This document shows, one piece after another, positions 37,648 to 59,714 of a DNA stretch of 64,000 nt. Source of the DNA: Anaerolineales bacterium (lineage in GTDB: Bacteria > Chloroflexota > Anaerolineae > Anaerolineales > UBA11858); NCBI GenBank assembly GCA_024763275.1, contig JANTFT010000006.1, positions 1,638 through 65,637 of the forward strand. The letters run 5' to 3'. The position numbers and the translations under genes are program-made. Numbering within the stretch: the stretch's first letter is position 1; each line of letters begins with the position of its first letter. The notes beneath the pieces were generated by a model, which was not told the DNA's origin, ran no database searches, and was given only the letters and a program-made list of their open reading frames with translations.

Positions 37648-37676
37648 TTGACGCTGGAGAGGTCTGCCGCTATAAT
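37648..37676 (+). promoter_or_regulatory. near-consensus sigma70 promoter of the TadE/TadG-vWA operon
   Basis: TTGACG (37648-37653), 17-nt spacer, TATAAT (37671-37676). This also argues for the ATG 37702 start. Confidence 0.55.
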
Positions 37677-37701
37677 GAGAATATTAAGCCAGGAAAATGA
37701 T

Positions 37702-38430
37702 ATGAATGGAAAGCGTAAGCCCTCCAGAGGGGATCATACCGGTCAGAGTTTTGTTGAGCTGGCGATAGTACTGCCCCTGCTGCTGTTCCTGCTGATCTCA
37801 TTTGTGGAGATTGGGGCGATCATTTACAACTATCTCTCTCTGCTGGACGTGGTCAGGGAAGCGGCCCGTTTTGCGGCTGACCGCGATCCAGAGGTGCTGA
37901 ACGGGGATATGAGCAACTATCCGATCAGCGCCTGTGAGGACGACGCTCTGCATTATTACCTGGACACTGCCTGTGTGGTAATCGGCACAAACTTCAACAA
38001 GGATATCACCCTCAACCCGGCTACGGATGACATCGCCATCTCGATTTTCACCATCGACAACAATGTGGTGGCGGACCGTAAACCCCATGACGCGGACAGG
38101 GTCTGGTCCCTCTACTCGGATAACTGGACCAAGAACTGTGATGGTTCCTTCCGTTCTAACACACCGTTTTTCCCCCAGCTGCCCGGCGATTCCTGGGTAA
38201 CCTATTCCACCCCGACCGCAGGTCCTGGCACGCCCACTCCAGGAGCGGGCACGGTAGTGCCGGGAGGACCGACCGATAAGGGCATCGTTTTAGTGGAGAT
38301 CTATTACTGCCACCATCAGCTGCTGAATCTGCCGCTGATCAGCAGTCTGATTCCCAACCCGGTCCCGCTGCATGCTTTTGCGGTCATGCCGGCACCTTTA
38401 GCAGCTCCTACAGCGACCCCTCTGCCTTAA
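37702..38430 (+). CDS. TadE-like (Flp-pilus minor pseudopilin-type) protein
   Basis: N-terminus GQSFVELAIVLPLLLFLLISFVEIGAIIY...AAREAARFAA-like is the TadE signature. Pro/Thr/Gly-rich stretch near the C-terminus. Confidence 0.8.
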   Translation: MNGKRKPSRGDHTGQSFVELAIVLPLLLFLLISFVEIGAIIYNYLSLLDVVREAARFAADRDPEVLNGDMSNYPISACEDDALHYYLDTACVVIGTNFNKDITLNPATDDIAISIFTIDNNVVADRKPHDADRVWSLYSDNWTKNCDGSFRSNTPFFPQLPGDSWVTYSTPTAGPGTPTPGAGTVVPGGPTDKGIVLVEIYYCHHQLLNLPLISSLIPNPVPLHAFAVMPAPLAAPTATPLP

Positions 38431-38446: not shown

Positions 38447-40087
38447 ATGAAAAAAAAGAAATCAGGACATCAAAGAGCGATCTTTTCCATCTTCTCTCAT
38501 AAGCTGGATCTCATCCACCGGGGGAGCACCCGGGAGCGGGGACAGGCGCTGGTGATCACCGCTGTGGCCTTCATGGCCATGCTGGCTTTTGCCGGGTTGG
38601 TGACGGACGCCGGCACCCTCTACCTGAATTTCACCCGCTTGAAAAGAGGCCTGGACTCCGCAGCTGTGGCAGCTGCCAACCAGATCCGGGACTCGTCCCT
38701 GCCAGCTGCCCAGCGCAAAGCCCTGATCCGGGAGTCCGCCCGGGAGATGCTGATGTTGAACAATGTCAGCGATATTTACTCCCTGGAAACCTACATCTGT
38801 GAGGACACCGGCATCCCGGCCGCTTTTGCTTCAATATGCCCTGCCTCTGGGGAGGATAAGCGCAAGCTGGCCTGGATCCAGGCTACCCAGAACAGCCCGG
38901 TGTATTTCCTGAGTCTGTTTGGCATAAACTCTATTCCCATCACCACCCATTCGATCGGTGAAGCTGCTTCTATTGATGTGGTGCTGGTAATTGATACTTC
39001 CGAGTCGATGGCCAGTGCAACCTCAGGCTATGACGCTAACTTTGACCCCTCGGCCTGCAACGCGGCCAACAACTGCCAGCCGCTGTTGGCTGCTAAAGAA
39101 GCGGCTAAAGCCATGGTTGATAAATTATTCGATGGTTACGACCGCGTTGCGGTGGTGACCTTTGATTTTAGCGCCACCATCCATGACCCTGATCTTTCGA
39201 CAAGTGACCTTTTGGAATCGGATCATACAGCAGTCAAAGCTGCCATTGACGCCATCCAGCTGCACGATGACACGGATCTGAATGACATTATCGCCACTGG
39301 TAAAAATCCCCTGGCGGGAGAGCTGAACCCGCTCGATATCGATGGGGATGGCACCTACGTGAGCGGCGTTCCGACAGGGTTTGGAGATGCCATTGTATCT
39401 ACCTGCACCGGATGTGGGGTGCGAGTTGCTGGGGATATCCTCAAAGCCCAGGGCCGGGTAGACAGTGTCTGGGTAATTGTACTGCTGTCAGATGGAGCTA
39501 CGAATGTGAGCGATCTGCCTGACGCTTCCGATGCCAATAATCCAGTCCCGGCTGGTTATATCAACGGTTTTTGCGGCGGAAACCCAGCCTTCCCCAGCCC
39601 AAACCGCATGTGGGATAAACCCTGGTGCACAGACAGCGATCCATCTACGCGCCACTGCGGGCCATTCCACGCCAACGCCGGGGAATGCCCTCCGGGTGCT
39701 GTCTGGGTAGGAAACAACACTCCTCCTTACGATGTGGAGGATTATGCCCGGGACATCACCGACCGGGTGGCTTTGCTGTATTCCACTAACAGCAACGAAC
39801 CCACTGGCGGTGAGGAAATCGCTATCTATACGATCGGGCTGGGAGTTGCAGCGGCTCCTCCTGATTATGACGGCGAGGAGATGCTGCGCTATATAGCCAA
39901 TATCGGGGACGACAACTTCCGCAACCCAATTCCGGACGACCCGACGGACGCTTATCCGCCCGATCCCTGTGACGGCGTCGCTCCTCAAACCTCCTGCGGC
40001 CAGTATTATTACGCTCCCAGCGGGGCATATTTGACCCAGATCTTCGAAAAAATTGCCGGGAGCATTTTCACCCGGATCACCCAGTAG
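38447..40087 (+). CDS. TadG-like N-terminal domain + von Willebrand factor A domain protein
   Basis: ERGQALVITAVAFMAMLAFAGLVTDAGTLYL (TadG/Tad_N-like). vWA MIDAS motif VVLVIDTSESM, with later LLSDGATN. Confidence 0.85.
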   Translation: MKKKKSGHQRAIFSIFSHKLDLIHRGSTRERGQALVITAVAFMAMLAFAGLVTDAGTLYLNFTRLKRGLDSAAVAAANQIRDSSLPAAQRKALIRESAREMLMLNNVSDIYSLETYICEDTGIPAAFASICPASGEDKRKLAWIQATQNSPVYFLSLFGINSIPITTHSIGEAASIDVVLVIDTSESMASATSGYDANFDPSACNAANNCQPLLAAKEAAKAMVDKLFDGYDRVAVVTFDFSATIHDPDLSTSDLLESDHTAVKAAIDAIQLHDDTDLNDIIATGKNPLAGELNPLDIDGDGTYVSGVPTGFGDAIVSTCTGCGVRVAGDILKAQGRVDSVWVIVLLSDGATNVSDLPDASDANNPVPAGYINGFCGGNPAFPSPNRMWDKPWCTDSDPSTRHCGPFHANAGECPPGAVWVGNNTPPYDVEDYARDITDRVALLYSTNSNEPTGGEEIAIYTIGLGVAAAPPDYDGEEMLRYIANIGDDNFRNPIPDDPTDAYPPDPCDGVAPQTSCGQYYYAPSGAYLTQIFEKIAGSIFTRITQ

Positions 40088-40099
40088 TACAGCACTTTC

Positions 40100-40140
40100 C
40101 TAACAGAATTGTTAACTTTTAGGCAGTTTTATGTTATACT
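40100..40140 (+). promoter_or_regulatory. variant copy of the locus-specific inverted-repeat/promoter element
   Basis: CTAACA-GAAT-TGTTAA (40100-40115) overlapping a TTAACT -35, then the extended -10 TGTTATACT (40132-40140), 33 nt before ATG 40173. Confidence 0.5.
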
Positions 40141-40172: not shown

Positions 40173-42284
40173 ATGGCAGTGGGGCGGGTAGCTCACTCTA
40201 AAACCAGAGGGCGGGGCCAGGCGATTGTGGAATTTGTGATTGCCCTGCCGATCCTGCTTTTCGTGATTTTCGGCATCATCGAATTTGCCCGGATGGTCTT
40301 TGCCTGGATGGCGGTCCAGAACGCGGCCCGCTTTGGCATCCGTTATGCGGTGACCGGTGAGTACGATGAGGCTTACTGCGTTGAGGCCGGCAACCTGCTG
40401 GGTGCCGCTTATGTCAACGCCGATACCGATGGGGGTGATCCCCAGGACTGCCAGATTCCCGATTCCTATACCGGGGCCGATAAAGCCGATAAGGAGCGCG
40501 AGCTGATCGATATGGCCCGCCTGTTCTCGATCCGAGATGTCGCTGTGGGGGGAGGGACCGGGCTGTGGCTGCGTCCCAGCGTTTCTGGCAATTATGAACA
40601 GTACCTGGGCTTGCACAATGCCGCGTTTATAGGCCTGCCTGACGAGACCGGGTTTTACCATATCACGGTTTGCAGCAACCGCAGCGGGCAGTACGCCATG
40701 GATTACGGCAATTACGCCATCCCGCTTTGCAAGGATGTGGCTAGCGGCGTGTTAATGGATGATGCTGGCGGCCCGGGCGACCGGGTCAAAGTCCACGTGG
40801 AGCACCGCCATCCCCTGTTCCTGCCGCTGCTCTCCAATATCTGGCCTTCGGTCAGCCTGAACGCAGAGCGCGACGGCATCGTCGAAAAATTCCGCACCTC
40901 GCGCTCCCTGGGCGTATCCGGCCCCATCCTTTCGGCGCCCACCTGGACCCAGACGCCCACCATCACGCTCACGCCTACCATCACCTACACCCCTACAGAG
41001 ACCTATACGCCGACTCCTACCGCCACGGACATTCCGGTGGATTGCGACCTGATCGATATCGATTACAGCTTCATAGGGGATTACGGGGGGGGGTTCTTTG
41101 GCGCTCTGGTCAGGATTCGCAACAACAATCCCGTGCCCATCCACCTCTTCCAGGCGGATGTGGGCTGGGATCTGATTCCCCCCAGCCGCTATCTGTGGGC
41201 CATGCAGTTCAATTTGAGTCCCTGGGAGATCTTGGATGATTTCTCTCCTCCCACCAGCTGGGTGCCACATCCCCCGGTGGCGATGGCTGCAGGAGGACTG
41301 GGCGATTATGTGGCTCTCTTCAAGCCGGTCGCAGAACCCGTCCAGGGTGTGACCACGGTGAACCTGACCTTTGAGGATGGCTGTACAAAAGGCATCACAG
41401 CCAACCTGCCCACATCCACAGCTACCCTGACCCCGACCATCACCGACACGCCCACGGTGACCCCCACGCCGGACTGTTCACAGTACAGCATGTCAGCTTT
41501 CACCTTCCAGAACTACGCCATCCAGCGCTTAACGGTCTCCAACAGCGATGTTGTCGATGCCCGGGTGAGCTCCATCCAGCTGGACTGGAGCTATGCCGAG
41601 AATTTCGGGGCCGTGAATGGTTATCCCAACCTGAACGTCGACTGGTTCAGATGGGACAGCAGCTATTTCCATCTGGGAGGCAACGGCGACGGGAATATCG
41701 ACTCGAGTTCCCCCACCAGCTGGAGCGGATCCCTGCCCTTTGACAGCGGGGACAGCTATTCCTGGTCTCTGGATTTTGACAGCGATTGGGGCGGAGGCGG
41801 GCCGCTCTCTGGCGTGGTAAGCAGTGATTTTGGCGTGATCATCAATTTTGACAATGGCTGCCAGCTGCGGCGGGACGCGATACCCCGGCCGATCCATTCC
41901 TGGACGCCCTCTCCAACTCCCACAGCCAGTTTAACGGCAACACCCCCGCCGCCTCCCACTGACACCCCGCTACCCAGCAACACGCCGACGGCCAGCAACA
42001 CTCCGCCGCCCAGCAGCACGCCGACGACCACCTACACGCCGACCATCACCCCGTCACCCACGAGAACCCCGGTGCCATCTGCCACGCCGCTGCCAACCAA
42101 CACCCTCCCGCCTCCTACAAGGACGAACACGCCAATCCCGAGTTTTACACCGGTTCCTACCAACACTTATACGCCGGTGCCGACGCATTCACCGACGCCG
42201 ACGCCGATACCCACCTGGACTCCAGCCTGTCCCTTCGATGATCCCAACTGGCCCTGCCAGCCAACCTGGACGCCCACGCCGTAG
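40173..42284 (+). CDS. TadE-domain, Pro/Thr-linker-rich secreted/surface protein, paralog 1 (703 aa)
   Basis: N-terminus GQAIVEFVIALPILLFVIFGIIEFARMVFAWMAVQNAARFGIRYAVTGE. Three PT-rich linkers separate two unknown ~120-140-aa domains. C-terminal motif TWTPACPFDDPNWPCQPTWTPTP. Confidence 0.85.
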   Translation: MAVGRVAHSKTRGRGQAIVEFVIALPILLFVIFGIIEFARMVFAWMAVQNAARFGIRYAVTGEYDEAYCVEAGNLLGAAYVNADTDGGDPQDCQIPDSYTGADKADKERELIDMARLFSIRDVAVGGGTGLWLRPSVSGNYEQYLGLHNAAFIGLPDETGFYHITVCSNRSGQYAMDYGNYAIPLCKDVASGVLMDDAGGPGDRVKVHVEHRHPLFLPLLSNIWPSVSLNAERDGIVEKFRTSRSLGVSGPILSAPTWTQTPTITLTPTITYTPTETYTPTPTATDIPVDCDLIDIDYSFIGDYGGGFFGALVRIRNNNPVPIHLFQADVGWDLIPPSRYLWAMQFNLSPWEILDDFSPPTSWVPHPPVAMAAGGLGDYVALFKPVAEPVQGVTTVNLTFEDGCTKGITANLPTSTATLTPTITDTPTVTPTPDCSQYSMSAFTFQNYAIQRLTVSNSDVVDARVSSIQLDWSYAENFGAVNGYPNLNVDWFRWDSSYFHLGGNGDGNIDSSSPTSWSGSLPFDSGDSYSWSLDFDSDWGGGGPLSGVVSSDFGVIINFDNGCQLRRDAIPRPIHSWTPSPTPTASLTATPPPPPTDTPLPSNTPTASNTPPPSSTPTTTYTPTITPSPTRTPVPSATPLPTNTLPPPTRTNTPIPSFTPVPTNTYTPVPTHSPTPTPIPTWTPACPFDDPNWPCQPTWTPTP

Positions 42285-42564: not shown

Positions 42565-42618
42565 CTAACAGGGTTGTTAGTTTAAGACCCTTGCGGGAAA
42601 TGCACCCGATGCTACACT
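42565..42618 (+). promoter_or_regulatory. locus-specific inverted repeat + promoter module (copy B)
   Basis: CTAACAGGGTTGTTAGTTTA, then TTGCGG (-35, 42591-42596), 16 nt, TGCTACACT (42610-42618). Confidence 0.6.
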
Positions 42619-42643
42619 GATAGCGAAGGATAACCTGAAACGT

Positions 42644-43054
42644 ATGGCAGCTACCAGAGGGCAAAGGAAGAAGCTCATGACCAAGAGAAAACGCACCAAA
42701 TACCAGATTATCGGGCTGATCTCACTCTCCCTGATCATCGCCGCGGCCACCTACGGCTTTGCCGAAGTTAACACCTTTGGGACCGCCGGCCTGCTGGGGG
42801 CGGACTACGGGGTGCTGTCCGATTACCAGGTTTCCAGGATCTCCTACACCCTTGACGAAGCGGACCCCACCACTTTTGTGGCGGTAAGTTTCCAGCTTGA
42901 TGGGCAGCCTGGATCGGTAAATGCAGGAATTTCCGAAACCAGGACAAGTCACGTCATCTGGGCTGACAGTTGCGAATCCACCGGCTCCAACTGGATCTGT
43001 GCTTTCGACAGCAGCATCGATGTCCTGGCGGCCGATTGGCTGCACGTTCAGTGA
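42644..43054 (+). CDS. small secreted protein, paralog S1 (SipW-type-like signal region)
   Basis: Basic N-terminus, hydrophobic core IIGLISLSLIIAAATYGFAEVN, then ..YQVSRISYTLDEADPTTFVAVSFQLD..C..NWIC..LHVQ. Clear paralog of 47544-47921. ATG 42677 (behind AAGGAAG) is an alternative start. Confidence 0.7.
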   Translation: MAATRGQRKKLMTKRKRTKYQIIGLISLSLIIAAATYGFAEVNTFGTAGLLGADYGVLSDYQVSRISYTLDEADPTTFVAVSFQLDGQPGSVNAGISETRTSHVIWADSCESTGSNWICAFDSSIDVLAADWLHVQ

Positions 43055-43135: not shown

Positions 43136-43504
43136 GTGGAAGATTAATCAGAAGAGCGGTTCCCTGCCAGTACCAGACAACAACCACAGCCAGGGACAGT
43201 GATTCGGGATCGGATTGCATCGCCGCAGCTGTTTCCGGGGAGGGGAGGTCCCCGGGATTTCCTAAACACCGATGAGTATCCTGGCACAGATGGCAGTGGC
43301 AGAGAACGGGAACTGAGCGATCTGGTCTGGACACCTCCTCGCCGACTGAGCTCCTGTTCAGCCGGTACCTTTTATTAAGACCTGGAAAATCGTCCAGAAC
43401 AACCAAGGAATGAGGTTTGCATGAAAGCCTAACAGAGTTGTCAGGCTTTTTATCTGCGCCCCCGTAGAGAGGAATGCCGGACCAGCGAGAGAAAAGGCCT
43501 TCTT

Positions 43505-43558
43505 CTAACAGGATTGTTAGGTTAACTGCCTTGAATAACCTCCCCCTGATGCTACACT
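43505..43558 (+). promoter_or_regulatory. locus-specific inverted repeat + promoter module (copy C)
   Basis: CTAACAGGATTGTTAGGTTA, TTGAAT (43531-43536), 16 nt, TGCTACACT (43550-43558). Spacing is identical to copies B and D. Confidence 0.6.
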
Positions 43559-43659
43559 GGTTTTACCCTGCCTGGGCATGATTGGTGGGGAATCAGGGAA
43601 ATATCCACTGGCGAAGGACTTCAGCGAGAGTATCCAGACGGTGGGTGTTTCCAGCACAT

Positions 43660-47425: not shown

Positions 47426-47479
47426 CTAACAGGATTTTTAGGTTAGAGGGGTTGACCAAAAAGGGTGGAATGCTACACT
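47426..47479 (+). promoter_or_regulatory. locus-specific inverted repeat + promoter module (copy D)
   Basis: CTAACAGGATTTTTAGGTTA, TTGACC (47452-47457), 16 nt, TGCTACACT (47471-47479). Confidence 0.6.
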
Positions 47480-47543
47480 GACAACGCATCACCATCAGGT
47501 GAAGTGAAAAAAGTAAAATTCAATTTTATTTTGGAGGAATATT

Positions 47544-47921: not shown

Positions 47922-47949
47922 TCCCCTGGTTTGCAAATAAAAGAGAATA

Positions 47950-50361: not shown

Positions 50362-50377
50362 GGAGTCCTTGATCAGC

Positions 50378-50836
50378 ATGAGACTGAAATGGCGACCGCT
50401 GGCGGCTTTTATGTTTTTGATTTTTGCAGTACTGGTGGTCGTGTCTGTAATGAACGCTTTTGCTACTGCCAACACTGTTCCTCAAACCAGAGCTGATAAG
50501 AACAGTATAGGTCTGGGAGTCAATGAGCTCCAGCCGCCAGAATGTGTCGGGTTGGGGTTGACCAATATCGTAGATATCGGTGCTGGTGAAACGGGTACAA
50601 GCGCCAATGATCTGATACTAGGGACAGCTAATTCTGACGCTGTGATCAGGGGCGGGGCAGGAAATGACTGTATCCTTGGCGGGGCAGGAAATGAACGACG
50701 TTGGTTTTTCTTCTTCTGGATTCCAGGTATTTTTGGGGACGAAGGAAACGATGTGATTATTGGCGGTCCCGGAAATGATGTGTGTTATGGCGGGGCTGGT
50801 AATGACATTTATTACGGCTGTGAAATAACATACTAG
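50378..50836 (+). CDS. small secreted protein S3 with RTX-like GGxGxD repeats
   Basis: AAGGAG RBS at 50360-50365. The signal region ...VVVVSVMNAFATANTVPQT resembles S2 (AAANSVP). Repeats are GGAGNDCILGGAGNE...GDEGNDVIIGGPGNDVCYGGAGNDIYYG. Confidence 0.65.
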   Translation: MRLKWRPLAAFMFLIFAVLVVVSVMNAFATANTVPQTRADKNSIGLGVNELQPPECVGLGLTNIVDIGAGETGTSANDLILGTANSDAVIRGGAGNDCILGGAGNERRWFFFFWIPGIFGDEGNDVIIGGPGNDVCYGGAGNDIYYGCEITY

Positions 50837-53900: not shown

Positions 53901-56900
53901 GCGGCCTGGAATTATTTAACCAGGGCATCGAGCTGATCGATCCGGTCGGAGCAGGGGTCTGCTCTGCGCATGATCCCAATCTTGGCAATAACGTCATCCT
54001 CATCACTTATGATCTGGTCCTCAGGGATGATGTCAACCCTGGGCAGGCTCTGAACACGTCCTCTGTGTTCCATTATGCCGGCTCGGAGGGAGGGCCGAAT
54101 CACCTGGAGGGGGTCAATCCCCTGGAGGATGACGCCACCGTAGATGTGATCGGTGGGCTGGAAAAGACCCTGGTGGAGACGGAGATTGTCTCAGCCACCA
54201 ATGTGGATGATTTTATCAATGATATCTATGAGGCTGTCATTGGAGAATTGGTCACTTACCGGATCTCCGCCATTGTTCCTGAGGGGGAAGTGCCTGGAGC
54301 CAGGCTGGTGGATCATCTTGACGGTGGGCTGGCCTTTGTCTCCTGTGATGCTGCTGTCATTCCCAACCCGGCTGCTTCAGTGGGGATCTCAACTGATTTT
54401 GGCTCTGGCTCGACAACCGACTTTTCCAGTGTTTGCCCTGCGACCGAGGCTTCCGGAGTATCCAATAACGGACAGGATATCGTTTTCGATCTGGGGAACC
54501 TGGTCAACAGCGATCGGAACAACACTACCGAAGAACGGATCGTGATCACCTACCAGGTGGTTGTGCTGAATGTGAGCGGGAATCAGGCCGGGACACTCCT
54601 TGATAATCAGGTTGATTTCACGATGAATGCTGGCTCTGGCGACGTGGTGCTGGCGACAGCCGACGCCCAGGATGTGACGGTCATCGAACCGGCAGTAATA
54701 ACTGAGAAATACACCCCGGCCGGGACGACCGGTACATCCACAAGCGGTGATGCTGGCGATCCGGTGTCCTACACGATCACGCTTAGCAATCCATCCACCC
54801 CGGCGGATACGGATGCCTTTGATGTGGAATTCAATGACAGTTTCCCGATGTGCCCGGACCCAACCGACGGGTCGGCGGTGCGTGACCTGGCAATCGATTC
54901 CCAGAGCGGCGGGGCCACTTTTATTCTGACCGGGGACAATACAGCCGGGTGGCAGTTGAGCGCCACTTATGATGGCGCTCCTGGAACTCCGATCGATTTT
55001 GCCCCGGGGGAGACGGCCACTGTCGATCTCTCCGGGACGCTGGCCTATTGTGTCACTCCGGGATTGTCGGTCGACAATACCGGGAATACGACCTGGACCA
55101 GTCTGAGCGGGGATTATGCTTCGGTGGCCCGATCGACCTATAACCCGGACGCCCTGGAGCGGACGGGCGGGGATGGCGTGAACGGTGCCCTGAATGATTA
55201 TGCCAGCCAGGCTACAGCGAGCGCTGTGATTGTCAACCCGACCAACACCAAATACATCATCAGCACCTCAGAAGCCCATACCGGCCTGGTGAACGGGCTG
55301 GAAAATCTGGCCATTGGGGAGATCGTCCGCTTCCGCCTGGTGTCTGTCATTCCTGAAGGAACCAGCCCGAACTTCCAGATCAGGGATCTGCTGCCCGGGG
55401 GATTGATATTCCTGAACGATGACACATCTGTGGTCGCCTTTGTTTCCGATGGTGGCATCACGTCTTCGCCAGCTGGAACTCTTCCTGTACCGGCTGTCCC
55501 CAATATCTGCAACCAGGTCGGTTCAACTGCGGATGCCAGCACCCCGGTGATGGATCCGGCGAACTGCACCCTGGCCGACAACAATGTCAGCAGAAGCCCC
55601 AGCACCAGTCTGGACGGGGATGATGTCTTTGCCGTGCCGGGAAGGGATGTCTATTTCAAACTGGGCGACCTGGTCAACAACGACAGCGACGCGGATTCCG
55701 AGTATGTAGTGATCGAGTTCAACGCCCTGGCGCACAACTTCAGCACGAACCAGAACGATTTTGGGGATACTGTCACCAATCAGAGCCAGGTCTACATCAC
55801 AGGCAGCCCCAATGGCGGTCTGTCAACAGCTGCAACGCTAAGAGTTGCTGAGCCAGTGATCAGCGTGACCAAATCCCTGGTTCCTCCTCTGCCAGTAGAT
55901 GCTGGCGACCCCATCCAATATGAGATCGTTTTCAGCAATGCGGCCTCGGGTGATGCCGGGGCTACCGCTTATGACCTGGAGCTGACAGATACTTTCGATG
56001 CCTATCTCGAAGCCCTGACCATATCCTCCGTCAGCACAACGCAGGGTGGGGTCTGTGTGGGAGATGGAGCAGGGACAACAGCCTTCACTCACTCGGAATC
56101 TCTGGCAGCGGGCGCCCTGACAGTGGACCTTTCCTGCCTGGATCCGGGCGAGAGCGTCACGGTCAACGTGACCGGCAATGTGGTTGATAATGTTCCTGCC
56201 GGCACAACGCTGCTTAACAGCGCTGTGGGGACAGGGACCAGCCTGGAGGGCGCCAACGGCACGACTGGCAACTCCACGGGCTCTGACACCCCCGGAGCAT
56301 CCGGATTGGACACAGGAGAACGCGACGGCAGCGATAGCGATACAGGCGGCCCCGATGATTATTATGATGCCGGTACTGCCAACCACAGCCTGGCCGTCCC
56401 TGTGATAAGCAAGTCCGTTGAGCCACCCGGTGAGTGGACCATCGGGGAAAGCTTCACCTACGACCTGGTCATTACCCTTCCGGAAGGCGTCACGCCGGAT
56501 ATGGTGGTCTATGATGACATACCGGATGGACTGGAATTCGTCAGCTACAACCTGATCACCACCACAGCCGGTGCTGGCAGTTTGCTGGTGGAGGATTTTG
56601 ATGGTACTCTGCCATCTCCTGTTGTGACCGCGGCAGGGGGCTCTGGTGGAGACCTGGAATTGGACTTCGGGGATACCACCACAAACGAGGAATATCCCAA
56701 TAACACAAACAACAACAGCTTCCAGGTTCAGATCACCGTTCAGGTCCTGAACATTGCCAGCAATCAGAACGGGGTCGTCCTCACCAACCAGGGCGAGCTG
56801 CGCTATTCCAGCGGCACAACTGCGACAGGCACAGTGGACATTGAAATCATTGAGCCGGTTCTGAACATCGCTAAAACGGTGGATGACGATACCCCGGGTC

Positions 56901-59656
56901 TGGGCCAGACCCTTACCTATTCTCTTGTTATTTCCCATGACCTGGATGGCGCTGGGGAGGACAGTCAATCTGATGCTTTCAACGTTCATATCACGGATAC
57001 CCTGCCGGCGGGATTGAGCAATTTGACCAATATCACCACCTCCAGCACAGGGAACTGCGCTTCAGGATTCGATACCTCCGGGTCCAGCGCTTCAGTGCTG
57101 GATGTAGCCATTAACGAGATTCCTTACTCGCTGCCTGCCCCGGGATGTGTGGTGACGATCACCTTCGATGCCACGGTGGACAGCCCGCCGGATCCTAACA
57201 CACCTGCATTGGGGAGCGTGATCGATAATACCGCTGAGATCACCTGGACGTCCCTGCTGGTCAGCAACGGTCAGGAGCGTTCTGGTGATGGCATCGCCGG
57301 CAACGTGGATGATTACGAGACAGCTGATACTCAGGCTGCAACGATCACCAATCCGGAACTGCGTGTTACCAAAGACGACGGGGTGGGAGTATATATCCCG
57401 GGTGATTCGGTTACCTATACCATCCTGGTGGAGAATATTGGCAACGCTGATGCGGTGAACGCGCTGGTGGAAGACAGTTTGCCCAGGGAAGTCAATCCGC
57501 CCAATGACCTCATGGTCAGCAGCTGGGATTGGGTATGTGCCGGCTCGACCGGCGGCGCCTCTGGCTGCACCGGCAGCCTGGGTCTAAGCGCTGATTTCAG
57601 CGATCTGGTGAACCTGCCAGCGGGTGCGTCGATCACTTACCAGGTGACTGCAAATATCCTCTCCTCCGCTGAAGGCGATCTGGTCAATACGGCCACAATC
57701 AGTATGCCAGCAGGGATCATAGAGCCGACCCCGGCTGACAACACAGCGACTGATACGGACATCCAGGAATCCCATGCGGATCTGAGCGTCACCAAGGACG
57801 ATGGGGTGACGATCATCTCTCCCGGGGAGGTGATCACCTATACCATCGTAGTGTCCAACATCTCACCCAGTGATGTCAGTGGGGCAGTTGTGGGTGACCT
57901 GATTCCGGCTGAGATCGACTCCTGGACCTGGGACTGCTCGGCAGTGCCACCCACTGGCGGTGCCTCTGGCTGTGATGGCGTGACCGATTCCACAGCTGAT
58001 TTCAATGACACGGTGAACTTACCAGCAAGTTCCTCGATTACCTACCAGGTAACTGCCCGGACGTCCCCGTCCGCCAGCGGCACGCTTACCAATCAGGTCA
58101 CGATAGCTGTACCAACTGGTGTGATCGAGGACAATCCCGCTGACAACACTGCCAGCGATGCGGACGGCTTCCCGACCCACACCAAGACTCTCACTGGTGT
58201 GGTCCACGGTGTGGCAGCACCGCCGGATGTGGCAATCGGGGAGATTCTCATTTACGAGATCACCCTGGCTGTACCGGATGGCACCCTGCCCAATCTGCAT
58301 CTGATCGATTCCCTTGATCAAGGACTGGCATTCTTGGGGTGCGATTCAATCACCGCACCCGGGCTTACTACCAGTGCCCCGGGTGGATTCACCGGGATCT
58401 GCGGCAGCCCTGTGGTTTCTGAACTGCCAGGCGGTAACCCGGAAGAGGTGAACCAGGGGCGGCGGGTGGATTACGATTTTGGGACCCTTATCAATTCCAG
58501 CGGTGGATTTGTGGACCTGGTGCTGCGCTACCAGGTTGTGGTCCTGGATAGTCTGGGCAACCAGAGCGTTTCCACACCGCCGCTGAATAATGATGCGGAA
58601 TGGGTCTGGGATTCCGGTCAGCTTTCTGATCAAGCCGTGGGCGTCACTATTCTGGAACCGGATCTGACCATCAGCAAGAGCGCGGATCCGATCACGGTCT
58701 ATCCGGGCCAGGTCACCACCTTCACACTGGTTGTGGAGCACTCGGCTTCCAGCCAGACCTCAGCCTACGATGTGGAGCTGACCGACATCATTCCGGCAGA
58801 TTTGATCTACCAGCCGCCCATCCGTCATGTCAGCGGTCAGGCTCCTACGACAATTAGCGACGCGGGGGATCCAACCCTGGTCGTGACCTGGGATGAATTC
58901 CTGAACAACGGTGTGAATTCGGTGATCGAGATCGATGTCATGCTCGATCCGGCTTTCAATCAGCGCCGCTTTGTTCAAACCATCACCAATGACGCATCGC
59001 TGTCCTGGAGCAGTTTGCCAGGGGATTTCTCTGCCCCGCAATCTCCCTATAATACGCTTTCTACTGAGAGGCGCTACGATCCGCTGAGCAACATTGACAT
59101 CTACAGTGCCGCTGATGGCGCCAGGATCAGAATCCCGCGCCTGCCAGACACCGGCTTTGCTCCTGGCAGGGTGACTGACCTTCCGGCCCAACCCCCCGCT
59201 GCTGCCTATAGGGATCTCAATGGACTCCGGCTGTGGATCCCGGATCTGGGAATATCCCTGCCGATCGTCAGTGTGCCAAACTCTCAGCAGGGCTACGACC
59301 TTACCTGGCTTGGCTCCCAGGCAGGCTGGCTGGAGGGCACTGCGTATCCATCGTGGAAAGGCAATACCGTGATCACCGGCCACGCCTACCTACCCAGCGG
59401 TTTACCCGGGCCGTTCGTGGATCTGGATCAACTGGTGTGGGGTGATGAGCTTATCCTTTATGCCAACGGCTACCGATATACCTATCAGGTCATAAACAAC
59501 AGGCTGGTCTCCGGTGACGATCTCAGCATTCTGGGGCACAAGGATCAGGATTGGCTGACTTTGTTCACCTGCAAGGAATACAGTGATAATCTGGGTGGTT
59601 ATCTGTGGAGGCAGGTAGTCCAGGCCGTTTTGATCGAAGCGGAAAAACTCAAGTAA
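50981..59656 (+). CDS. giant (2,891 aa) repeat-rich surface adhesin (DUF11/'conserved repeat domain'-type modules) with C-terminal LPDTG motif fused to a sortase domain
   Basis: N-terminal signal/anchor (WLGYLTAIILNVFLLVDLPSPSLA). Many modules of the type VTK..P....PG..VTY.I.V.N.G...A..V...D.LP. LPDTG at aa 2721-2725 (nt 59141-59155). The sortase-like C-terminus has TGH (H2801), LTLFTC (C2864) and WRQ (R2877). Confidence 0.9.
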   Translation: MSMIPASSNITTKHFRWLGYLTAIILNVFLLVDLPSPSLAKPLAAAAPAVTIAPSSVMIGEDFDFLVTFNNTGTDSGYGPFIDLVFPYTGQDGDDGIEYYSSSYLGASLEDDIQYFPDQGGGWGCVTHPWLRDNTGSYVDVCGRAGDQFVSIRLPFGSFTPDQPQLDITVNAHLSINADLNPGLFIYGRGGFMFGETPEDDWCCGDTPFAVPNGTDSTTWPATPVTPQVITFSKAYTGPGNTEDETSTGPNFPRQYTLTVDIASGQTLTNIEIQDQLPDNVQFIGIDAGGTTAGYTVTSLPSTSTPGGTLSLNYASGSGTVVVTYDFYIPELYDQDGDTLFDEPVIDPLSGDDVSSANIAWVDASWDPVDPRDPVAPLTSDATCPTCPPLHTLMDKSLAIQKSVAVVPGTGGGPLGDQVAPNAILEYTLSIQVSDYFTLDNLVVTDTISDGQHVLPASTFTPTVQVSSNPGAFGPLAFNSSNYEISCDYTGATITAPPPTECTIVTGGATGQTTLTFRLSDEINANLSDGTMRGGCVNPVSPFGLYSPCDRSNLRDGPTTATIIYRAKVLDQFVDDYPSGDISVDQGDELDNTVDVTGDVLDNTSGGVVGVESDDAAAGTAIGRETLSKSIYAINGETNSALWDRDALGRVRVNPGDVVTYELEYDLLTSDVEELTFDDYFPLPVFDVTDPDDDGAAGPSWTFSSSGGIPAPGVVGLLLPGDTFYQYMTDGLSGGTGTLSPSTNNPIPTQDPVITADGLNNKINIYYADYDDTRNQSKTVDLLISITVSDDPFADGLFLTNMAHAFEGSTNAGTNTENAIIQFVLGEPVLVSTKGIIWSSNADASVVFDPLPAGPVGITFQDPSFAPRWTGTPGIINSSGLAANPIDSDLSGVDASDTVTFAITIENQGSSINGAFDIQLRDMIDTAFYQVPATGADLNLQVYYGDGTGPIAYRSIRLNGPNPFCTASANADDCGLELFNQGIELIDPVGAGVCSAHDPNLGNNVILITYDLVLRDDVNPGQALNTSSVFHYAGSEGGPNHLEGVNPLEDDATVDVIGGLEKTLVETEIVSATNVDDFINDIYEAVIGELVTYRISAIVPEGEVPGARLVDHLDGGLAFVSCDAAVIPNPAASVGISTDFGSGSTTDFSSVCPATEASGVSNNGQDIVFDLGNLVNSDRNNTTEERIVITYQVVVLNVSGNQAGTLLDNQVDFTMNAGSGDVVLATADAQDVTVIEPAVITEKYTPAGTTGTSTSGDAGDPVSYTITLSNPSTPADTDAFDVEFNDSFPMCPDPTDGSAVRDLAIDSQSGGATFILTGDNTAGWQLSATYDGAPGTPIDFAPGETATVDLSGTLAYCVTPGLSVDNTGNTTWTSLSGDYASVARSTYNPDALERTGGDGVNGALNDYASQATASAVIVNPTNTKYIISTSEAHTGLVNGLENLAIGEIVRFRLVSVIPEGTSPNFQIRDLLPGGLIFLNDDTSVVAFVSDGGITSSPAGTLPVPAVPNICNQVGSTADASTPVMDPANCTLADNNVSRSPSTSLDGDDVFAVPGRDVYFKLGDLVNNDSDADSEYVVIEFNALAHNFSTNQNDFGDTVTNQSQVYITGSPNGGLSTAATLRVAEPVISVTKSLVPPLPVDAGDPIQYEIVFSNAASGDAGATAYDLELTDTFDAYLEALTISSVSTTQGGVCVGDGAGTTAFTHSESLAAGALTVDLSCLDPGESVTVNVTGNVVDNVPAGTTLLNSAVGTGTSLEGANGTTGNSTGSDTPGASGLDTGERDGSDSDTGGPDDYYDAGTANHSLAVPVISKSVEPPGEWTIGESFTYDLVITLPEGVTPDMVVYDDIPDGLEFVSYNLITTTAGAGSLLVEDFDGTLPSPVVTAAGGSGGDLELDFGDTTTNEEYPNNTNNNSFQVQITVQVLNIASNQNGVVLTNQGELRYSSGTTATGTVDIEIIEPVLNIAKTVDDDTPGLGQTLTYSLVISHDLDGAGEDSQSDAFNVHITDTLPAGLSNLTNITTSSTGNCASGFDTSGSSASVLDVAINEIPYSLPAPGCVVTITFDATVDSPPDPNTPALGSVIDNTAEITWTSLLVSNGQERSGDGIAGNVDDYETADTQAATITNPELRVTKDDGVGVYIPGDSVTYTILVENIGNADAVNALVEDSLPREVNPPNDLMVSSWDWVCAGSTGGASGCTGSLGLSADFSDLVNLPAGASITYQVTANILSSAEGDLVNTATISMPAGIIEPTPADNTATDTDIQESHADLSVTKDDGVTIISPGEVITYTIVVSNISPSDVSGAVVGDLIPAEIDSWTWDCSAVPPTGGASGCDGVTDSTADFNDTVNLPASSSITYQVTARTSPSASGTLTNQVTIAVPTGVIEDNPADNTASDADGFPTHTKTLTGVVHGVAAPPDVAIGEILIYEITLAVPDGTLPNLHLIDSLDQGLAFLGCDSITAPGLTTSAPGGFTGICGSPVVSELPGGNPEEVNQGRRVDYDFGTLINSSGGFVDLVLRYQVVVLDSLGNQSVSTPPLNNDAEWVWDSGQLSDQAVGVTILEPDLTISKSADPITVYPGQVTTFTLVVEHSASSQTSAYDVELTDIIPADLIYQPPIRHVSGQAPTTISDAGDPTLVVTWDEFLNNGVNSVIEIDVMLDPAFNQRRFVQTITNDASLSWSSLPGDFSAPQSPYNTLSTERRYDPLSNIDIYSAADGARIRIPRLPDTGFAPGRVTDLPAQPPAAAYRDLNGLRLWIPDLGISLPIVSVPNSQQGYDLTWLGSQAGWLEGTAYPSWKGNTVITGHAYLPSGLPGPFVDLDQLVWGDELILYANGYRYTYQVINNRLVSGDDLSILGHKDQDWLTLFTCKEYSDNLGGYLWRQVVQAVLIEAEKLK

Positions 59657-59674
59657 CCATCAACCCGGAAAAAT

Positions 59675-59714
59675 AAACAAGCCCCGCATTATTAGAAAGC
59701 AGGGCTTGTTTTTA
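59675..59714 (+). terminator. intrinsic terminator after the giant gene
   Basis: AAACAAGCCC-(17 nt)-GGGCTTGTTT followed by TTA. Confidence 0.7.

What the first reader, a model, noticed from the sequence alone, without database searches (positions are those of the whole stretch)
37648..59714. One 22-kb locus looks like an undescribed c-di-GMP-linked surface-fibre/adhesin processing system
These genes are contiguous, all on the + strand, and bounded by housekeeping genes. (i) A TadE-like gene and a TadG-N/vWA gene. (ii) Two duplicated modules, each a ~700-aa TadE-domain PT-rich protein plus a ~125-aa secreted paralog. (iii) A SipW-type signal peptidase fused to a degenerate EAL domain. (iv) A third small paralog with RTX-like repeats. 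(v) A 2,891-aa adhesin that ends in LPDTG plus its own sortase domain. Several units share one private promoter/operator motif. Two established precedents make a functional link plausible. In Bacillus subtilis the tapA-sipW-tasA operon uses a dedicated SipW peptidase to mature fibre subunits. In Pseudomonas fluorescens the degenerate-EAL receptor LapD uses c-di-GMP to control proteolytic release of the giant adhesin LapA by LapG. Here the peptidase and the c-di-GMP-type domain are one polypeptide, and the adhesin carries its own transpeptidase. I do not recognise this combination as a described system. The functional coupling is my inference.
Basis: partly seen in the sequence, partly recalled or inferred. 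Interest (0 to 1): 0.85.

Follow-up and report, generated by a model that had tools for sequence, protein, structure and literature searches.

The report
Signal-peptidase surface-fibre cassette with c-di-GMP domain
This locus is built around a three-gene cassette common in Chloroflexota, in which a dedicated signal peptidase sits between two small secreted proteins it probably matures; here the peptidase carries a catalytically degenerate c-di-GMP-type (EAL) domain on its cytoplasmic side, and the cassette is flanked by pilin-like anchor proteins and by a giant adhesin fused to its own sortase.

Summary

Eighty related genome loci show the true unit. It is a trio of small secreted protein S, SipW-type peptidase fused to DUF5305, and the RTX protein S3. 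S is present in 79 of 80 loci and S3 in 76 of 80. An EAL domain is fused to the peptidase in 27 of 80 loci, plus two split by frameshifts. One homologue carries an HD-GYP domain instead.

The EAL domain has a degenerate loop 6 throughout the family. It usually also lacks the catalytic glutamate, yet it evolves as slowly as the peptidase. A c-di-GMP sensor is therefore the likeliest role.

The TadE/vWA genes and the operator occur only in a small subclade, but always together with the trio. The sortase-fused adhesin also occurs far from any trio, so it is an independent module.

Dedicated peptidase plus DUF5305 fibre loci are already described (TasA/SipW, Tafi, AbpX). This locus is a new variant of that kind, not a new kind. 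Three features are unreported in the literature I could search: the S/S3 family, the c-di-GMP-domain fusion, and the in-cis LPxTG-sortase.

The parts
37618..37680 (+). Operator palindrome (CTTACAGTATTGTAAG) followed by a TTGACG-17-TATAAT promoter for the TadE-like/vWA unit
37636..38430 (+). TadE-like pseudopilin-type protein. The likely true start is ATG 37699. N-terminus has G/QSFVEL, a class-III-like motif.
   Evidence: PF07811 at 6.7e-11; start inferred from the promoter position
38447..40087 (+). TadG-like N-terminus (PF13400) plus a vWA domain with an intact DxSxS MIDAS motif
   Evidence: orthologues in all 8 subclade loci
40100..40115 (+). Operator copy upstream of T1, followed by TGTTATACT, an extended -10-like element
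40173..42284 (+). T1: TadE N-terminus, three Cys-bounded globular domains, PT-rich linkers and a conserved C-terminal CPFDDPNWPC motif. Orthologous to T1 of relatives (75-79% identity).
42565..42619 (+). 55-nt operator plus promoter repeat (palindrome, TTGCGG, TGCTACACT) upstream of S1
42644..43054 (+). S1: small secreted protein of the S family, of the S1 type that always follows T1
43429..43559 (+). Two operator copies 76 bp apart plus a promoter, upstream of the second TadE-PT gene
43582..45771 (+). Tb: a divergent TadE-PT paralogue, 53-58% identical to T1, T2 and T3 of relatives
45999..47241 (+). Decayed IS3-family transposase remnant. It is not part of the system. It occupies the T2/T3-to-S2 interval, where relatives carry a further TadE-PT gene.
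   Evidence: HTH_Tnp_1 and rve_3 fragments in several frames; gene order in relatives
47352..47480 (+). Two operator copies 74 bp apart plus a TTGACC-16-TG-n-TACACT promoter, upstream of S2 and probably of the S2-peptidase-S3 operon
47544..47921 (+). S2: presumed main substrate or subunit. Sec-type signal, conserved YGFAAANxVP, and a ~90-aa beta-sandwich with 2 conserved Cys.
48001..50361 (+). 786-aa fusion protein. ER/SipW-type signal peptidase (aa 12-149; S44, H81, D96, D102), four TM segments, DUF5305 (Pfam match aa 290-510; hydropathy places the whole extracytoplasmic loop at aa 206-410), a cytoplasmic alpha/beta region, and a degenerate EAL domain (aa 530-763).
50369..50836 (+). S3: the same signal and A-x-NTVP N-terminus as S, followed by Cys-containing RTX Ca2+-binding repeats
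50981..59656 (+). 2,891-aa DUF11/isopeptide-domain adhesin with an ordinary Sec signal. It is a loosely associated, independent module.
59141..59155 (+). LPDTG motif (aa 2721-2725), 139 residues before the TLxTC motif that holds the catalytic Cys (TC at aa 2863-2864)
59234..59632 (+). C-terminal sortase domain with catalytic H2801, C2864 and R2877
   Evidence: PF04203 at 5.9e-19; invariant residues; Foldseek to class C/E/A sortases at about 1e-10

Best explanation
Core unit. The functional core is a three-gene cassette: S2, the peptidase and S3. The peptidase is a membrane-embedded ER/SipW-type signal peptidase I fused to its DUF5305 accessory module. The inferred mechanism has three steps.
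1. The peptidase removes the Sec-type signal peptides of the small S proteins and of S3, close to the shared A-x-A/NTVP site.
2. The matured ~90-aa beta-sandwich S subunits, together with S3, assemble outside the cell into a surface fibre or matrix polymer. The conserved new N-terminus probably acts as the inter-subunit strand. S3 has that N-terminus plus a Ca2+-binding beta-roll but no S domain, so it would act as an end or cap subunit.
3. The C-terminal EAL domain sits in the cytoplasm. It has lost catalytic features but stays under selection. It most likely binds c-di-GMP and passes that state across the membrane through DUF5305 to the peptidase/assembly site. This would be inside-out control, analogous to LapD.

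Subclade additions. In this organism's subclade the cassette has gained a TadE-like gene, a TadG/vWA gene, TadE-PT stalk proteins and a second S type (S1). All are driven by promoters that carry one conserved palindromic site. These proteins probably act as membrane anchors or adhesive accessories of the same structure.

The adhesin. The neighbouring giant adhesin is a separate module. Its invariant LPxTG lies directly before its own sortase domain. This suggests a single-turnover, in-cis transpeptidation that attaches or polymerises the adhesin.

Shown: gene content, co-occurrence, motif conservation, residue conservation and predicted topology. Inferred: cleavage by this peptidase, polymerisation, c-di-GMP binding, the direction of signalling, and sortase action in cis.
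For: Dedicated peptidase and its substrates:
- TIGR02228 scores above its cut-off, and S44, H81, D96 and D102 are invariant in 32 homologues.
- DUF5305 scores above its cut-off.
- In 80 species-level genome loci, S is adjacent in 79 and S3 in 76. BLAST clustering finds no other widely shared neighbour except a hybrid response-regulator/kinase in 18 loci.
- S and S3 share the motif F-A-x-A-N-T-V-P right after a Sec-type signal, across the whole family.
- Natural single-chain fusions S-S-S3like(-S-S3like) exist (P0421, P0380).
- The S family has 1,825 clusters at 50% identity, almost all of 110-140 aa.
- Published precedent: TafD peptidase with TafG (DUF5305) is needed for Tafi pilin processing, and AbpX loci carry SPase I plus DUF5305.

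c-di-GMP link:
- EAL is fused in 27 of 80 loci, plus 2 frameshifted.
- One homologue has an intact HD-GYP domain (HD, HHE, GYP) at the same position.
- Arthrobacter and Ornatilinea loci have GGDEF or EAL genes nearby.
- Loop 6 is degenerate in all members. The EGVE glutamate is replaced by Q, V, K or S in all but two of the 32 aligned homologues (plus Ornatilinea). EITE becomes EINR in the closer relatives. The substrate-side residues E, R, N, K and Q are kept.
- The EAL part diverges at the same rate as the peptidase part.
- Four TM segments place the peptidase and DUF5305 outside and the EAL domain inside.

Subclade accessories:
- The order TadVWA-T1-S1-T2-T3-S2-peptidase-S3 is conserved in related genomes.
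- The operator has 7 copies here against 0.71 expected. The exact palindrome occurs only in the TadE-bearing loci among the 88 loci then held.

Sortase:
- LPxTG sits at a fixed -139 residues from TLxTC in about 90% of homologues, with x variable.
- P, T, G, F, H, C and R are invariant.
- In the AF2 model the LPDTG segment has pLDDT 90-92, while the preceding linker has 54-67.
- The fold matches sortases.
Against: - S is not detectably a TasA-superfamily protein. Forty S members give no consistent Pfam or NCBIfam hit at E up to 10. The S profile finds no PDB sequence. The Foldseek best hit is E 0.14, to generic Ig domains. Fibre formation therefore rests on analogy and on the S-S-S3 fusions.
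- No experiment shows cleavage, polymerisation or c-di-GMP binding.
- About two thirds of loci have no c-di-GMP domain, so the control is optional.
- Some members, for example Ornatilinea, keep the EGVE glutamate and could retain activity. The HD-GYP variant looks catalytically competent. This fits an enzymatic output as well as a sensor.
- TadE-type N-termini normally need a prepilin peptidase and Tad machinery, and neither is in the window.
- The adhesin has an ordinary signal peptide, has no operator, and is found elsewhere without the cassette.
Confidence: 0.6

Rival explanations
1. The 22-kb block is three unrelated modules that happen to be neighbours. The first is a set of Tad minor pilins and a vWA tip adhesin serving a Tad pilus encoded elsewhere. 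The second is the S-peptidase-S3 cassette. The third is a self-contained sortase adhesin. Only the middle one depends on the peptidase.
For: - The trio occurs alone in about 74 of 80 related loci.
- GC content of the trio is 0.44-0.51, against 0.55-0.60 for both flanks.
- TadE N-termini carry the class-III G/xxxxE motif, which is not an SPase I site.
- Cytochrome genes separate the trio from the adhesin in L003, L006, L012 and L013.
- Sortase-fused DUF11 proteins occur without the trio.
Against: - All 8 subclade loci keep the TadE/vWA genes directly upstream of the trio.
- An S-type gene (S1) is embedded between the TadE-PT genes.
- The same conserved palindrome precedes the TadE units and the S1 and S2 units, and is absent elsewhere in the window.
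- No Tad ATPase, platform protein or prepilin peptidase is nearby.
Confidence: 0.25
2. The EAL or HD-GYP domain is an output, not a sensor. The fusion protein would be a phosphodiesterase, or a trigger enzyme, whose activity depends on substrate flux or assembly state at the peptidase. Secretion status would then feed back on the cellular c-di-GMP pool.
For: - The HD-GYP variant keeps its HD, HHE and GYP motifs.
- A few EAL members keep the EGVE glutamate: P0035, P0047 and Ornatilinea.
- The metal and substrate residues E, N, E, D and K are kept in the window protein.
Against: - Loop 6 (DFG(T/A)GYSS), which from my knowledge of RocR and TBD1265 studies is required for EAL activity, is degenerate with a one-residue deletion in every member.
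- The EGVE glutamate is Q in the window protein and in all 24 homologues that are at least 47% identical to it.
- DDF becomes DNF in most members.
Confidence: 0.15
3. S and S3 are not fibre subunits. They are small secreted or wall-associated proteins, for example a Ca2+-dependent coat, sheath or matrix component or a signalling peptide carrier. They would need a specialised peptidase only because of their unusual signal peptide.
For: - No fold or sequence link to any solved donor-strand pilin.
- The S domain is only ~90 aa.
- S3 is mostly an RTX beta-roll.
Against: - Conservation extends well past the cleavage site, through NTVP...AGEGxGxISGY. This is expected for a functional N-terminal strand.
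- Tandem S-S-S3 fusion proteins exist.
- Every experimentally studied system with a dedicated ER-type peptidase, with or without DUF5305 (TasA, Tafi, AbpX), makes fibres.
Confidence: 0.25

Closest known systems
Haloarchaeal Tat-fimbriae (Tafi): TafD signal peptidase I, TafG (DUF5305) and the TafA/TafE pilins (PMC11821415; PMC12337348)
   Same: A dedicated ER-type signal peptidase I works with a DUF5305 protein. Both are encoded next to several small secreted subunits and variable accessory or tip proteins. Deleting the peptidase blocks pilin processing. Assembly needs no chaperone or usher.
   Different: - Here the peptidase and DUF5305 are one polypeptide and carry a cytoplasmic EAL domain.
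- The subunits use Sec-type rather than Tat signals.
- The subunits are ~90-aa domains with no detectable similarity to Tafi or TasA pilins.
- The host is a bacterium (Chloroflexota).
- TadE/vWA proteins are present.
AbpX calcium-responsive biomatrix fibrils and their loci (bioRxiv 10.64898/2026.01.04.697558)
   Same: - SPase I (TIGR02228) plus a DUF5305 accessory next to the fibril subunits.
- The preprint notes the SPase-DUF5305 fusion in Anaerolinea thermophila.
[quoted passage not shown]
- Calcium is involved (the RTX repeats of S3 here).
- The subunit carries two Cys.
   Different: - AbpX is a 163-aa TasA-superfamily protein, whereas S shows no such relationship in my tests.
- In AbpX loci the c-di-GMP enzymes are separate neighbours, not fused to the peptidase.
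- The AbpX-associated peptidase is described as having ten TM helices, whereas this one has four.
Bacillus subtilis tapA-sipW-tasA
   Same: A dedicated ER-type signal peptidase is encoded between its secreted matrix-fibre substrates. The substrates share a private signal-peptide motif.
   Different: - No DUF5305 and no c-di-GMP domain.
- TasA is a ~230-aa Peptidase_M73-fold protein, and no M73 or TIGR04088 hit is found here.
- The NCBIfam SipW equivalog scores 34 bits against a cut-off of 190.
Pseudomonas LapD/LapG/LapA inside-out c-di-GMP switch
   Same: A degenerate cytoplasmic EAL domain sits on a membrane protein whose extracytoplasmic part governs a proteolytic step affecting a surface protein.
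   Different: - LapD has HAMP, a degenerate GGDEF and an EAL domain, and it sequesters a separate cysteine protease, LapG.
- Here the EAL domain is on the protease itself, which is a serine signal peptidase.
- There is no LapG, no LapD periplasmic domain, and no T1SS adhesin with a retention module.
- The LapD NCBIfam model scores 71 bits against a cut-off of 1020.
Class C (pilus-assembly) sortases and LPXTG pilins/adhesins of Gram-positive bacteria
   Same: A sortase fold with the His-Cys-Arg triad. The substrate has isopeptide (RrgB-D2-type) and DUF11 domains and an LPxTG motif.
   Different: - Enzyme and substrate are one chain.
- LPxTG is followed by a conserved FAPGRxTxLPxQP linker and the sortase, not by a hydrophobic anchor and a charged tail.
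- The sortase has no membrane anchor of its own.
- All NCBIfam sortase class models score below their cut-offs.

Membership tests
ER/archaeal-type signal peptidase I (SipW/Sec11 type, TIGR02228) | Profile match above the curated cut-off | tested here: met
   TIGR02228 scores 61.0 bits against a cut-off of 51.85, over aa 12-149
ER/archaeal-type signal peptidase I (SipW/Sec11 type, TIGR02228) | Ser-His catalytic pair (not Ser-Lys) plus conserved Asp residues | tested here: met
   S44 (GNSMEP), H81 (HRII), D96 and D102 (GDNNxWxD) are invariant in alignments A4 and A5
SPase I + DUF5305 fibre loci (Tafi/AbpX type) | DUF5305 accessory module associated with the peptidase | tested here: met
   PF17231 scores 33.6 bits against a cut-off of 29 and is fused in the same chain. 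The same architecture appears in 86 homologues.
SPase I + DUF5305 fibre loci (Tafi/AbpX type) | Adjacent genes for secreted subunits that share a signal or N-terminal motif | tested here: met
   S adjacent in 79 of 80 loci and S3 in 76 of 80; shared FAxANTVP motif
SPase I + DUF5305 fibre loci (Tafi/AbpX type) | Subunits belong to the TasA superfamily (TasA, AbpA, AbpX, Tafi, CanA folds) | tested here: not met
   No Pfam or NCBIfam family at E up to 10 in 40 members. No PDB sequence hit with the profile. Foldseek best E 0.14, to Ig V domains. Caveat: the model included the signal helix, and remote fold similarity cannot be excluded.
SPase I + DUF5305 fibre loci (Tafi/AbpX type) | Subunits polymerise by donor-strand complementation | not testable with these tools
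   No multimer prediction or experiment was possible. The only indirect support is the tandem S-S-S3 fusions.
B. subtilis SipW/TasA/TapA system | SipW equivalog, TasA (Peptidase_M73) and TapA homologues | tested here: not met
   NF046067 scores 34 bits against a cut-off of 190. No M73, TasA or TapA hits were found in any locus protein.
Catalytically active EAL c-di-GMP phosphodiesterase | Complete catalytic set: EAL/ExLxR, N, ExxE, DDFG(T/A)GYSS loop 6, KxD, EGxE and QG | tested here: not met
   Aligned to TBD1265 (2r6o): EINR replaces EITE, DDF-ATDAA replaces DDFGTGYSS, and QGVE replaces EGIE. The pattern holds family-wide. The roles of these residues come from my knowledge of the RocR and TBD1265 literature.
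LapD-type c-di-GMP receptor | HAMP, degenerate GGDEF, degenerate EAL and a LapG-binding periplasmic domain, with LapG and LapA partners | tested here: not met
   Only the EAL domain is present. NF045673 scores 71 bits against a cut-off of 1020. No GGDEF, HAMP or LapG-type protease is in the locus.
LapD-type c-di-GMP receptor | EAL domain binds c-di-GMP without hydrolysing it | not testable with these tools
   Requires binding and activity assays
Tad (Flp) pilus locus | TadE/TadF/TadG-type pseudopilins | tested here: met
   PF07811 in three proteins and PF13400 in one
Tad (Flp) pilus locus | TadA/CpaF ATPase, TadB/C platform, Flp pilin and TadV prepilin peptidase in the locus | tested here: not met
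   None is found among the larger ORFs scanned across the 64-kb window or in the related loci. Small Flp-type genes were not looked for.
Sortase (PF04203) with LPXTG substrate | Sortase fold and His-Cys-Arg triad | tested here: met
   PF04203 scores 68.5 bits. H2801, C2864 and R2877 are invariant. Foldseek gives about 1e-10 to sortases C, E and A.
Sortase (PF04203) with LPXTG substrate | Canonical sorting signal: LPXTG, then a hydrophobic segment, then a positively charged tail | tested here: not met
   LPDTG is followed by a conserved soluble linker and the sortase domain, with no hydrophobic anchor
Sortase (PF04203) with LPXTG substrate | Assignment to a defined sortase class (A-F) | tested here: inconclusive
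   All NCBIfam class models fall far below their cut-offs: 25-42 bits against 140-166. The closest PDB sequence is a class C sortase.

The most novel reading that the evidence does not exclude
c-di-GMP binds the degenerate EAL domain, or is turned over by the HD-GYP variant. Acting through the DUF5305 transmembrane module, this directly gates an extracytoplasmic signal peptidase. The second messenger would then control, after translation, the maturation and self-assembly of a previously unrecognised family of ~90-aa fibre subunits (S) capped by an RTX subunit (S3). Separately, the neighbouring adhesin would represent a class of self-sorting proteins. Their own single-turnover sortase would cleave the adjacent LPxTG in cis and ligate the adhesin to the wall or to another subunit.
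Probability: 0.3. Interest if true: 0.8.

Novelty: new variant of a known kind. Interest (0 to 1): 0.6.

Why it matters
Three consequences would follow if the reading is right.

1. A new point of c-di-GMP control. c-di-GMP is known to control biofilm matrix at the levels of transcription, polysaccharide synthase activity and adhesin release. I found no report of control at signal-peptide cleavage. A receptor-type EAL domain welded to a dedicated signal peptidase, and an HD-GYP domain at the same position in another lineage, would add that level.

2. A possible surface-fibre system in a poorly studied group. The S/S3 cassette is present in at least 289 species-level genomes, mostly Chloroflexota (Anaerolineales, Caldilineaceae, Dehalococcoidia, Thermomicrobiales, Chloroflexales). 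These filamentous bacteria dominate sludge, sediments and mats, and their surface structures are almost unstudied. The S family has about 1,800 clusters at 50% identity and no annotation.

3. A new way to use a sortase. The invariant LPxTG-sortase cis-fusion suggests one, and it has potential as a self-ligating protein tag.

A cultured carrier, Ornatilinea apprima P3M-1, makes the first two points directly testable.

Tried and rejected
- **TasA-superfamily membership of S.** I tested it with an AF2 model plus Foldseek against the PDB, a profile against PDB sequences, and Pfam/NCBIfam at E up to 10 on 40 members. None gave a link, so S is not filed as TasA-like.
- **S as a type IV/Flp-type pilin matured by a prepilin peptidase.** Rejected. 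S has an n-h-c Sec signal with the conserved small-residue site after the hydrophobic core. It has no G/xxxxE motif before it.
- **Tad machinery in the window.** None found.
- **Adhesin as a SipW substrate.** Its signal peptide (…SPSLA/KP) lacks the FAxANTVP motif, so there is no support.
- **A pilin motif (YPK) or a second LPxTG anywhere in the locus.** None found.
- **A recent horizontal origin of the trio, suggested by its low GC.** The peptidase gene is slightly GC-poor relative to its flanks in 48 of 59 loci. This looks intrinsic, although the dip here is larger than usual.
- **A first related-locus search with a 32-sequence alignment.** It failed for lack of a conserved stretch. A 13-sequence alignment worked.
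- **PDB sequence relatives for T1 and for the vWA protein.** None.
- **Literature searches.** Searches for sortase-fused DUF11 proteins found no relevant paper (two unrelated hits; none). The search for signal peptidase plus EAL domain plus TasA returned one unrelated genome paper.
Full report
**1. What is in the sequence**

On the + strand the order is:
- a TadE-like gene (37636-38430);
- a Tad/vWA gene (38447-40087, with an intact DxSxS MIDAS motif);
- a 703-aa TadE plus PT-rich protein, T1 (40173-42284);
- a 136-aa secreted protein, S1 (42644-43054);
- a 729-aa paralogue, Tb (43582-45771), 53% identical to T1;
- a 125-aa protein, S2 (47544-47921), 43% identical to S1;
- a 786-aa membrane protein (48001-50361);
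- a 155-aa RTX protein, S3 (50369-50836);
- a 2,891-aa protein with DUF11 and isopeptide domains (50981-59656), carrying LPDTG at aa 2721-2725 and a C-terminal sortase domain.

Upstream lie nuo and ferredoxin genes. Downstream lie an M19 dipeptidase, phoU and pst genes.

- The 786-aa protein has a DUF5305 module (PF17231, above its cut-off) between the peptidase and the EAL domain.
- A decayed IS3-family transposase occupies 45999-47241, between Tb and S2. Its pieces lie in several frames.

**2. The shared promoter/operator is real**

A 55-nt repeat occurs upstream of S1, Tb and S2. It consists of the palindrome CTAACAGGnTTGTTAG, a TTG-type -35 element, and TGCTACACT, an extended -10. The generic promoter scan independently picks up the S2 copy.

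With up to 3 mismatches the palindrome occurs 7 times in the window, against 0.71 expected. All copies are on the + strand and lie in or at the edge of intergenic DNA of this locus. They precede the TadE-like gene, T1, S1, Tb (two copies) and S2 (two copies). None precedes the peptidase, S3 or the adhesin. S2-peptidase-S3 therefore probably forms one transcription unit (gaps of 79 and 7 bp), and the adhesin's expression is not tied to the motif.

The palindrome sits upstream of the -35 element, and the second copies lie about 75 bp further up. This arrangement looks more like an activator site than a repressor operator; that reading is my inference. The copy at 37618-37633 and its TTGACG-17-TATAAT promoter overlap the first called ATG, so the first gene probably starts at 37699.

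**3. What the related loci show**

The N-terminal 520 aa (peptidase plus DUF5305) have 86 homologues in the protein collection. About 35 carry an EAL domain. Most of the others are ~500-540 aa without one. One (P0050) carries HD/HD_5 domains instead.

A scan of species-representative genomes found 289 relatives, and I fetched the 80 best loci. They come mainly from Anaerolineales, Caldilineaceae, Dehalococcoidia/Tepidiformaceae, Thermomicrobiales and Chloroflexales, and include the cultured Ornatilinea apprima P3M-1. A few MAG titles name other phyla.

I searched the window's proteins against all ORFs of these loci, with these results:

| Feature | Loci with feature (of 80) |
|---|---|
| S | 79 |
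| S3 | 76 (some absences are contig ends) |
| EAL in the peptidase ORF | 27, plus 2 split by frameshifts |
| TadE-PT/vWA genes | 6 closest loci (plus L003 and L006, fetched separately) |
| Adhesin directly adjacent | 1 (L009) |

All-against-all clustering of neighbours found no other widely conserved partner, apart from a hybrid response-regulator/histidine kinase in 18 loci. The conserved functional unit is therefore the trio S, peptidase-DUF5305 and S3.

**4. The trio as a peptidase-with-substrates cassette**

The peptidase is of the ER/archaeal (SipW/Sec11) type. TIGR02228 scores above its cut-off, and Ser44, His81, Asp96 and Asp102 are invariant.

S and S3 share a Sec-type signal followed by F-A-x-A-N-T-V-P throughout the family. 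In S, conservation continues through AGEGxGxISGY into a ~90-aa domain with two conserved cysteines. AF2 models this domain as a seven-stranded beta-sandwich with pLDDT 83. The stretch just after the signal is less well defined, with pLDDT 62-63.

S3 has the same N-terminus but then only Cys-containing RTX repeats.

A profile search of 1.84 billion representatives found 1,825 S-family clusters, nearly all of 110-140 aa. Two exceptions (P0421 and P0380) are single chains of the form signal-S-S-S3like(-S-S3like). This is Rosetta-stone evidence that S and S3 act together in a linear arrangement.

The literature gives the functional frame.
- In Haloarcula, the peptidase TafD is required to process the Tafi pilin, and TafG is a DUF5305 protein proposed to assist it (PMC11821415; PMC12337348).
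- A 2026 preprint on AbpX describes SPase I plus DUF5305 next to fibril subunits. [quoted passage not shown] It notes that DUF5305 is fused to SPase I in Anaerolinea thermophila. [quoted passage not shown]

The class of system is therefore known.

I could not show that S belongs to the TasA superfamily. There was no Pfam or NCBIfam family at E up to 10 in 40 members, no PDB sequence hit with the profile, and only generic Ig-like Foldseek matches with best E 0.14. Fibre formation by S remains an inference.

**5. The c-di-GMP domain**

Hydropathy gives four TM segments (about aa 10-30, 133-153, 184-204 and 413-435). This places the peptidase domain and the acidic 206-410 domain outside. It places aa 436-520 and the EAL domain (aa 530-763) in the cytoplasm, matching the published DUF5305 topology.

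Aligned with TBD1265 (PDB 2r6o), the window's EAL domain keeps E (EAF), R, N, the first E of ExxE, DD, K and Q. It differs in three places: EINR replaces EITE, a shortened non-consensus loop 6 (DDF-ATDAA) replaces DDFGTGYSS, and QGVE replaces EGIE.

Across 32 fused homologues:
- loop 6 is always degenerate;
- the EGxE glutamate is Q in all close relatives and V, K or S in most distant ones, and is kept only in P0035 and P0047 among those aligned (also in Ornatilinea);
- DDF is DNF in most.

From my knowledge of the RocR and TBD1265 work, these features are needed for hydrolysis.

Despite this, the EAL part diverges no faster than the peptidase part. For example, identities are 52-54% for EAL against 56% for the peptidase, and 70% against 73%. 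It is therefore under selection. The HD-GYP variant has intact HD, HHE and GYP motifs. The Arthrobacter and Ornatilinea loci have GGDEF or EAL genes a few kb away.

Two unrelated c-di-GMP-specific domains fused at the same position are strong evidence for a c-di-GMP link. A sensor role for the EAL version is the most likely reading. An enzymatic or feedback role is the rival.

**6. The TadE/vWA part**

In the subclade the conserved order is TadVWA-T1-S1-T2-T3-S2-peptidase-S3. The window's T1 is the T1 orthologue (75-79% identity). Tb is about equally distant from all three (53-58%). The window has one TadE-PT gene fewer than its relatives, the IS3 remnant lies in the Tb-to-S2 gap, and no TadE-PT remnant is left there. 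The "two duplicated modules" are therefore a derived, damaged layout.

The exact palindrome is found only in the TadE-bearing loci among the 88 loci then held. Conserved synteny, an S-type gene embedded among the T genes and the common operator together argue that these genes work with the trio.

Their N-termini are class-III-like (G/QAIVEF). No Tad machinery or prepilin peptidase is in the window, so how they are processed is open. No PDB relatives exist for T1 or for the vWA protein.

**7. The adhesin**

The C-terminal 291 aa have 141 homologues, many annotated as sortase with DUF11. LPxTG lies at a fixed 139 residues before the TLxTC motif in about 90% of them, with x free (D, A, E, S, Q, R, K and others). 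P, T, G and F of LPxTGF, and H, C and R of the triad, are invariant. No hydrophobic anchor follows the motif.

The AF2 model (pLDDT 87.6) gives the LPDTGFAPGR… segment pLDDT 90-92, whereas the preceding linker has 54-67. This is consistent with the motif being packed on the sortase domain. The fold matches class C, E and A sortases at about 1e-10.

I found no paper on this architecture.

The adhesin is not tied to the trio.
- It is directly adjacent only in L009.
- It lies 4.5-5 kb downstream, behind multihaem cytochrome genes, in L003 and L006.
- A different giant DUF11 protein takes that place in L012 and L013.
- Sortase-fused DUF11 proteins occur with no trio nearby in L089 and L090. In L089 the protein is again next to an M19 dipeptidase.

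**8. Verdict**

- There is a peptidase-centred, c-di-GMP-linked surface-protein system.
- Its real core is the widespread S/peptidase-DUF5305/S3 cassette.
- The TadE/vWA genes are a subclade-specific, co-regulated addition.
- The adhesin is an independent neighbour.
- The overall kind of system is already described (TasA/SipW, Tafi, AbpX).

Three elements are unreported in the literature I could search: the unannotated S/S3 family, the EAL or HD-GYP fusion to the signal peptidase, and the cis LPxTG-sortase.

Noticed in passing
window 45999-47241: Decayed IS3-family transposase. HTH_Tnp_1/HTH_21 and rve fragments lie in several frames. It sits in the gap before S2; related genomes carry three TadE-PT genes where the window has two, and no remnant of a third gene is left.
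   Followed up: yes
P0421 (532 aa) and P0380 (615 aa), from the representative search: Natural single-chain fusions of the form signal + S + S + S3-like RTX module (+ S + S3-like). These are Rosetta-stone evidence that S and S3 belong to one structure.
   Followed up: partly
L004 10001-12121 (P0050): A peptidase-DUF5305 homologue carries an intact HD-GYP domain (HD, HHE, GYP) where the window protein has EAL. Its locus has two S genes, S3, exopolysaccharide genes (Wzz, glycosyltransferase) and a GAF histidine kinase.
   Followed up: partly
L003 13027-17019; L006 12369-16423; L013 13126-17061: In several relatives, multihaem c-type cytochrome genes (Cytochrome_C7, NapC/NrfH-like) are inserted between S3 and the giant DUF11 adhesin. 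The window has none.
   Followed up: no
L076 (Ornatilinea apprima P3M-1) 9417-12849 and 15179-16063: A cultured strain carries S, an 823-aa peptidase-DUF5305-EAL protein (EGVE glutamate kept, loop 6 degenerate) and S3, with a PAS-GGDEF gene 2.3 kb downstream. It is a possible experimental system.
   Followed up: partly
window 12787-14960: Two adjacent, overlapping FemAB-family ORFs (peptidoglycan cross-bridge peptidyltransferases) lie next to sugar-transferase and epimerase genes. Cross-bridges are the usual sortase nucleophile, which may matter for the sortase-fused adhesin.
   Followed up: no
window 47544-50836 versus flanks: S2, the peptidase-EAL gene and S3 have GC 0.44-0.51 (GC3 0.45-0.48). 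The TadE genes and the adhesin have GC 0.55-0.60 (GC3 0.62-0.73). The peptidase gene is mildly GC-poor in 48 of 59 related loci, but the dip here is unusually large.
   Followed up: partly
window 42201-42283 and 45688-45770: The last 27 codons of both TadE-PT genes are 87% identical at the DNA level, far above the 53% protein identity of the whole genes. They encode …TPACPFDDPNWPCQPTWTPTP, a conserved two-Cys C-terminal knob of unknown role.
   Followed up: no
window operator copies (37618, 40100, 42565, 43429, 43505, 47352, 47426): The half-sites TAAC…GTTA recall, from memory, the Streptomyces BldD box (TNAC-N5-GTNA), whose binding protein responds to c-di-GMP. The spacing here is N6, and no regulator gene lies in the locus. 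This is a lead only.
   Followed up: no
window 7204-9340 and 9346-12747: An OmpR-type response regulator and a HAMP histidine kinase are followed by GT2, a Bac_transf sugar transferase and an epimerase. This is a possible exopolysaccharide unit 25 kb upstream of the locus.
   Followed up: no
window 27094-27831 and 34006-35754: Fused housekeeping genes: ATP synthase b plus delta (ATP-synt_B + OSCP) in one 245-aa ORF, and NuoC plus NuoD in one 582-aa ORF.
   Followed up: no
L089 4386-13777: An independent sortase-fused DUF11 adhesin (1883 + 367 aa, probably one gene) also lies close to a Peptidase_M19 gene (about 1.6 kb away, with an S1-domain gene between). The window's adhesin is likewise next to an M19 dipeptidase (59894-60949), so this pairing may be conserved.
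   Followed up: no
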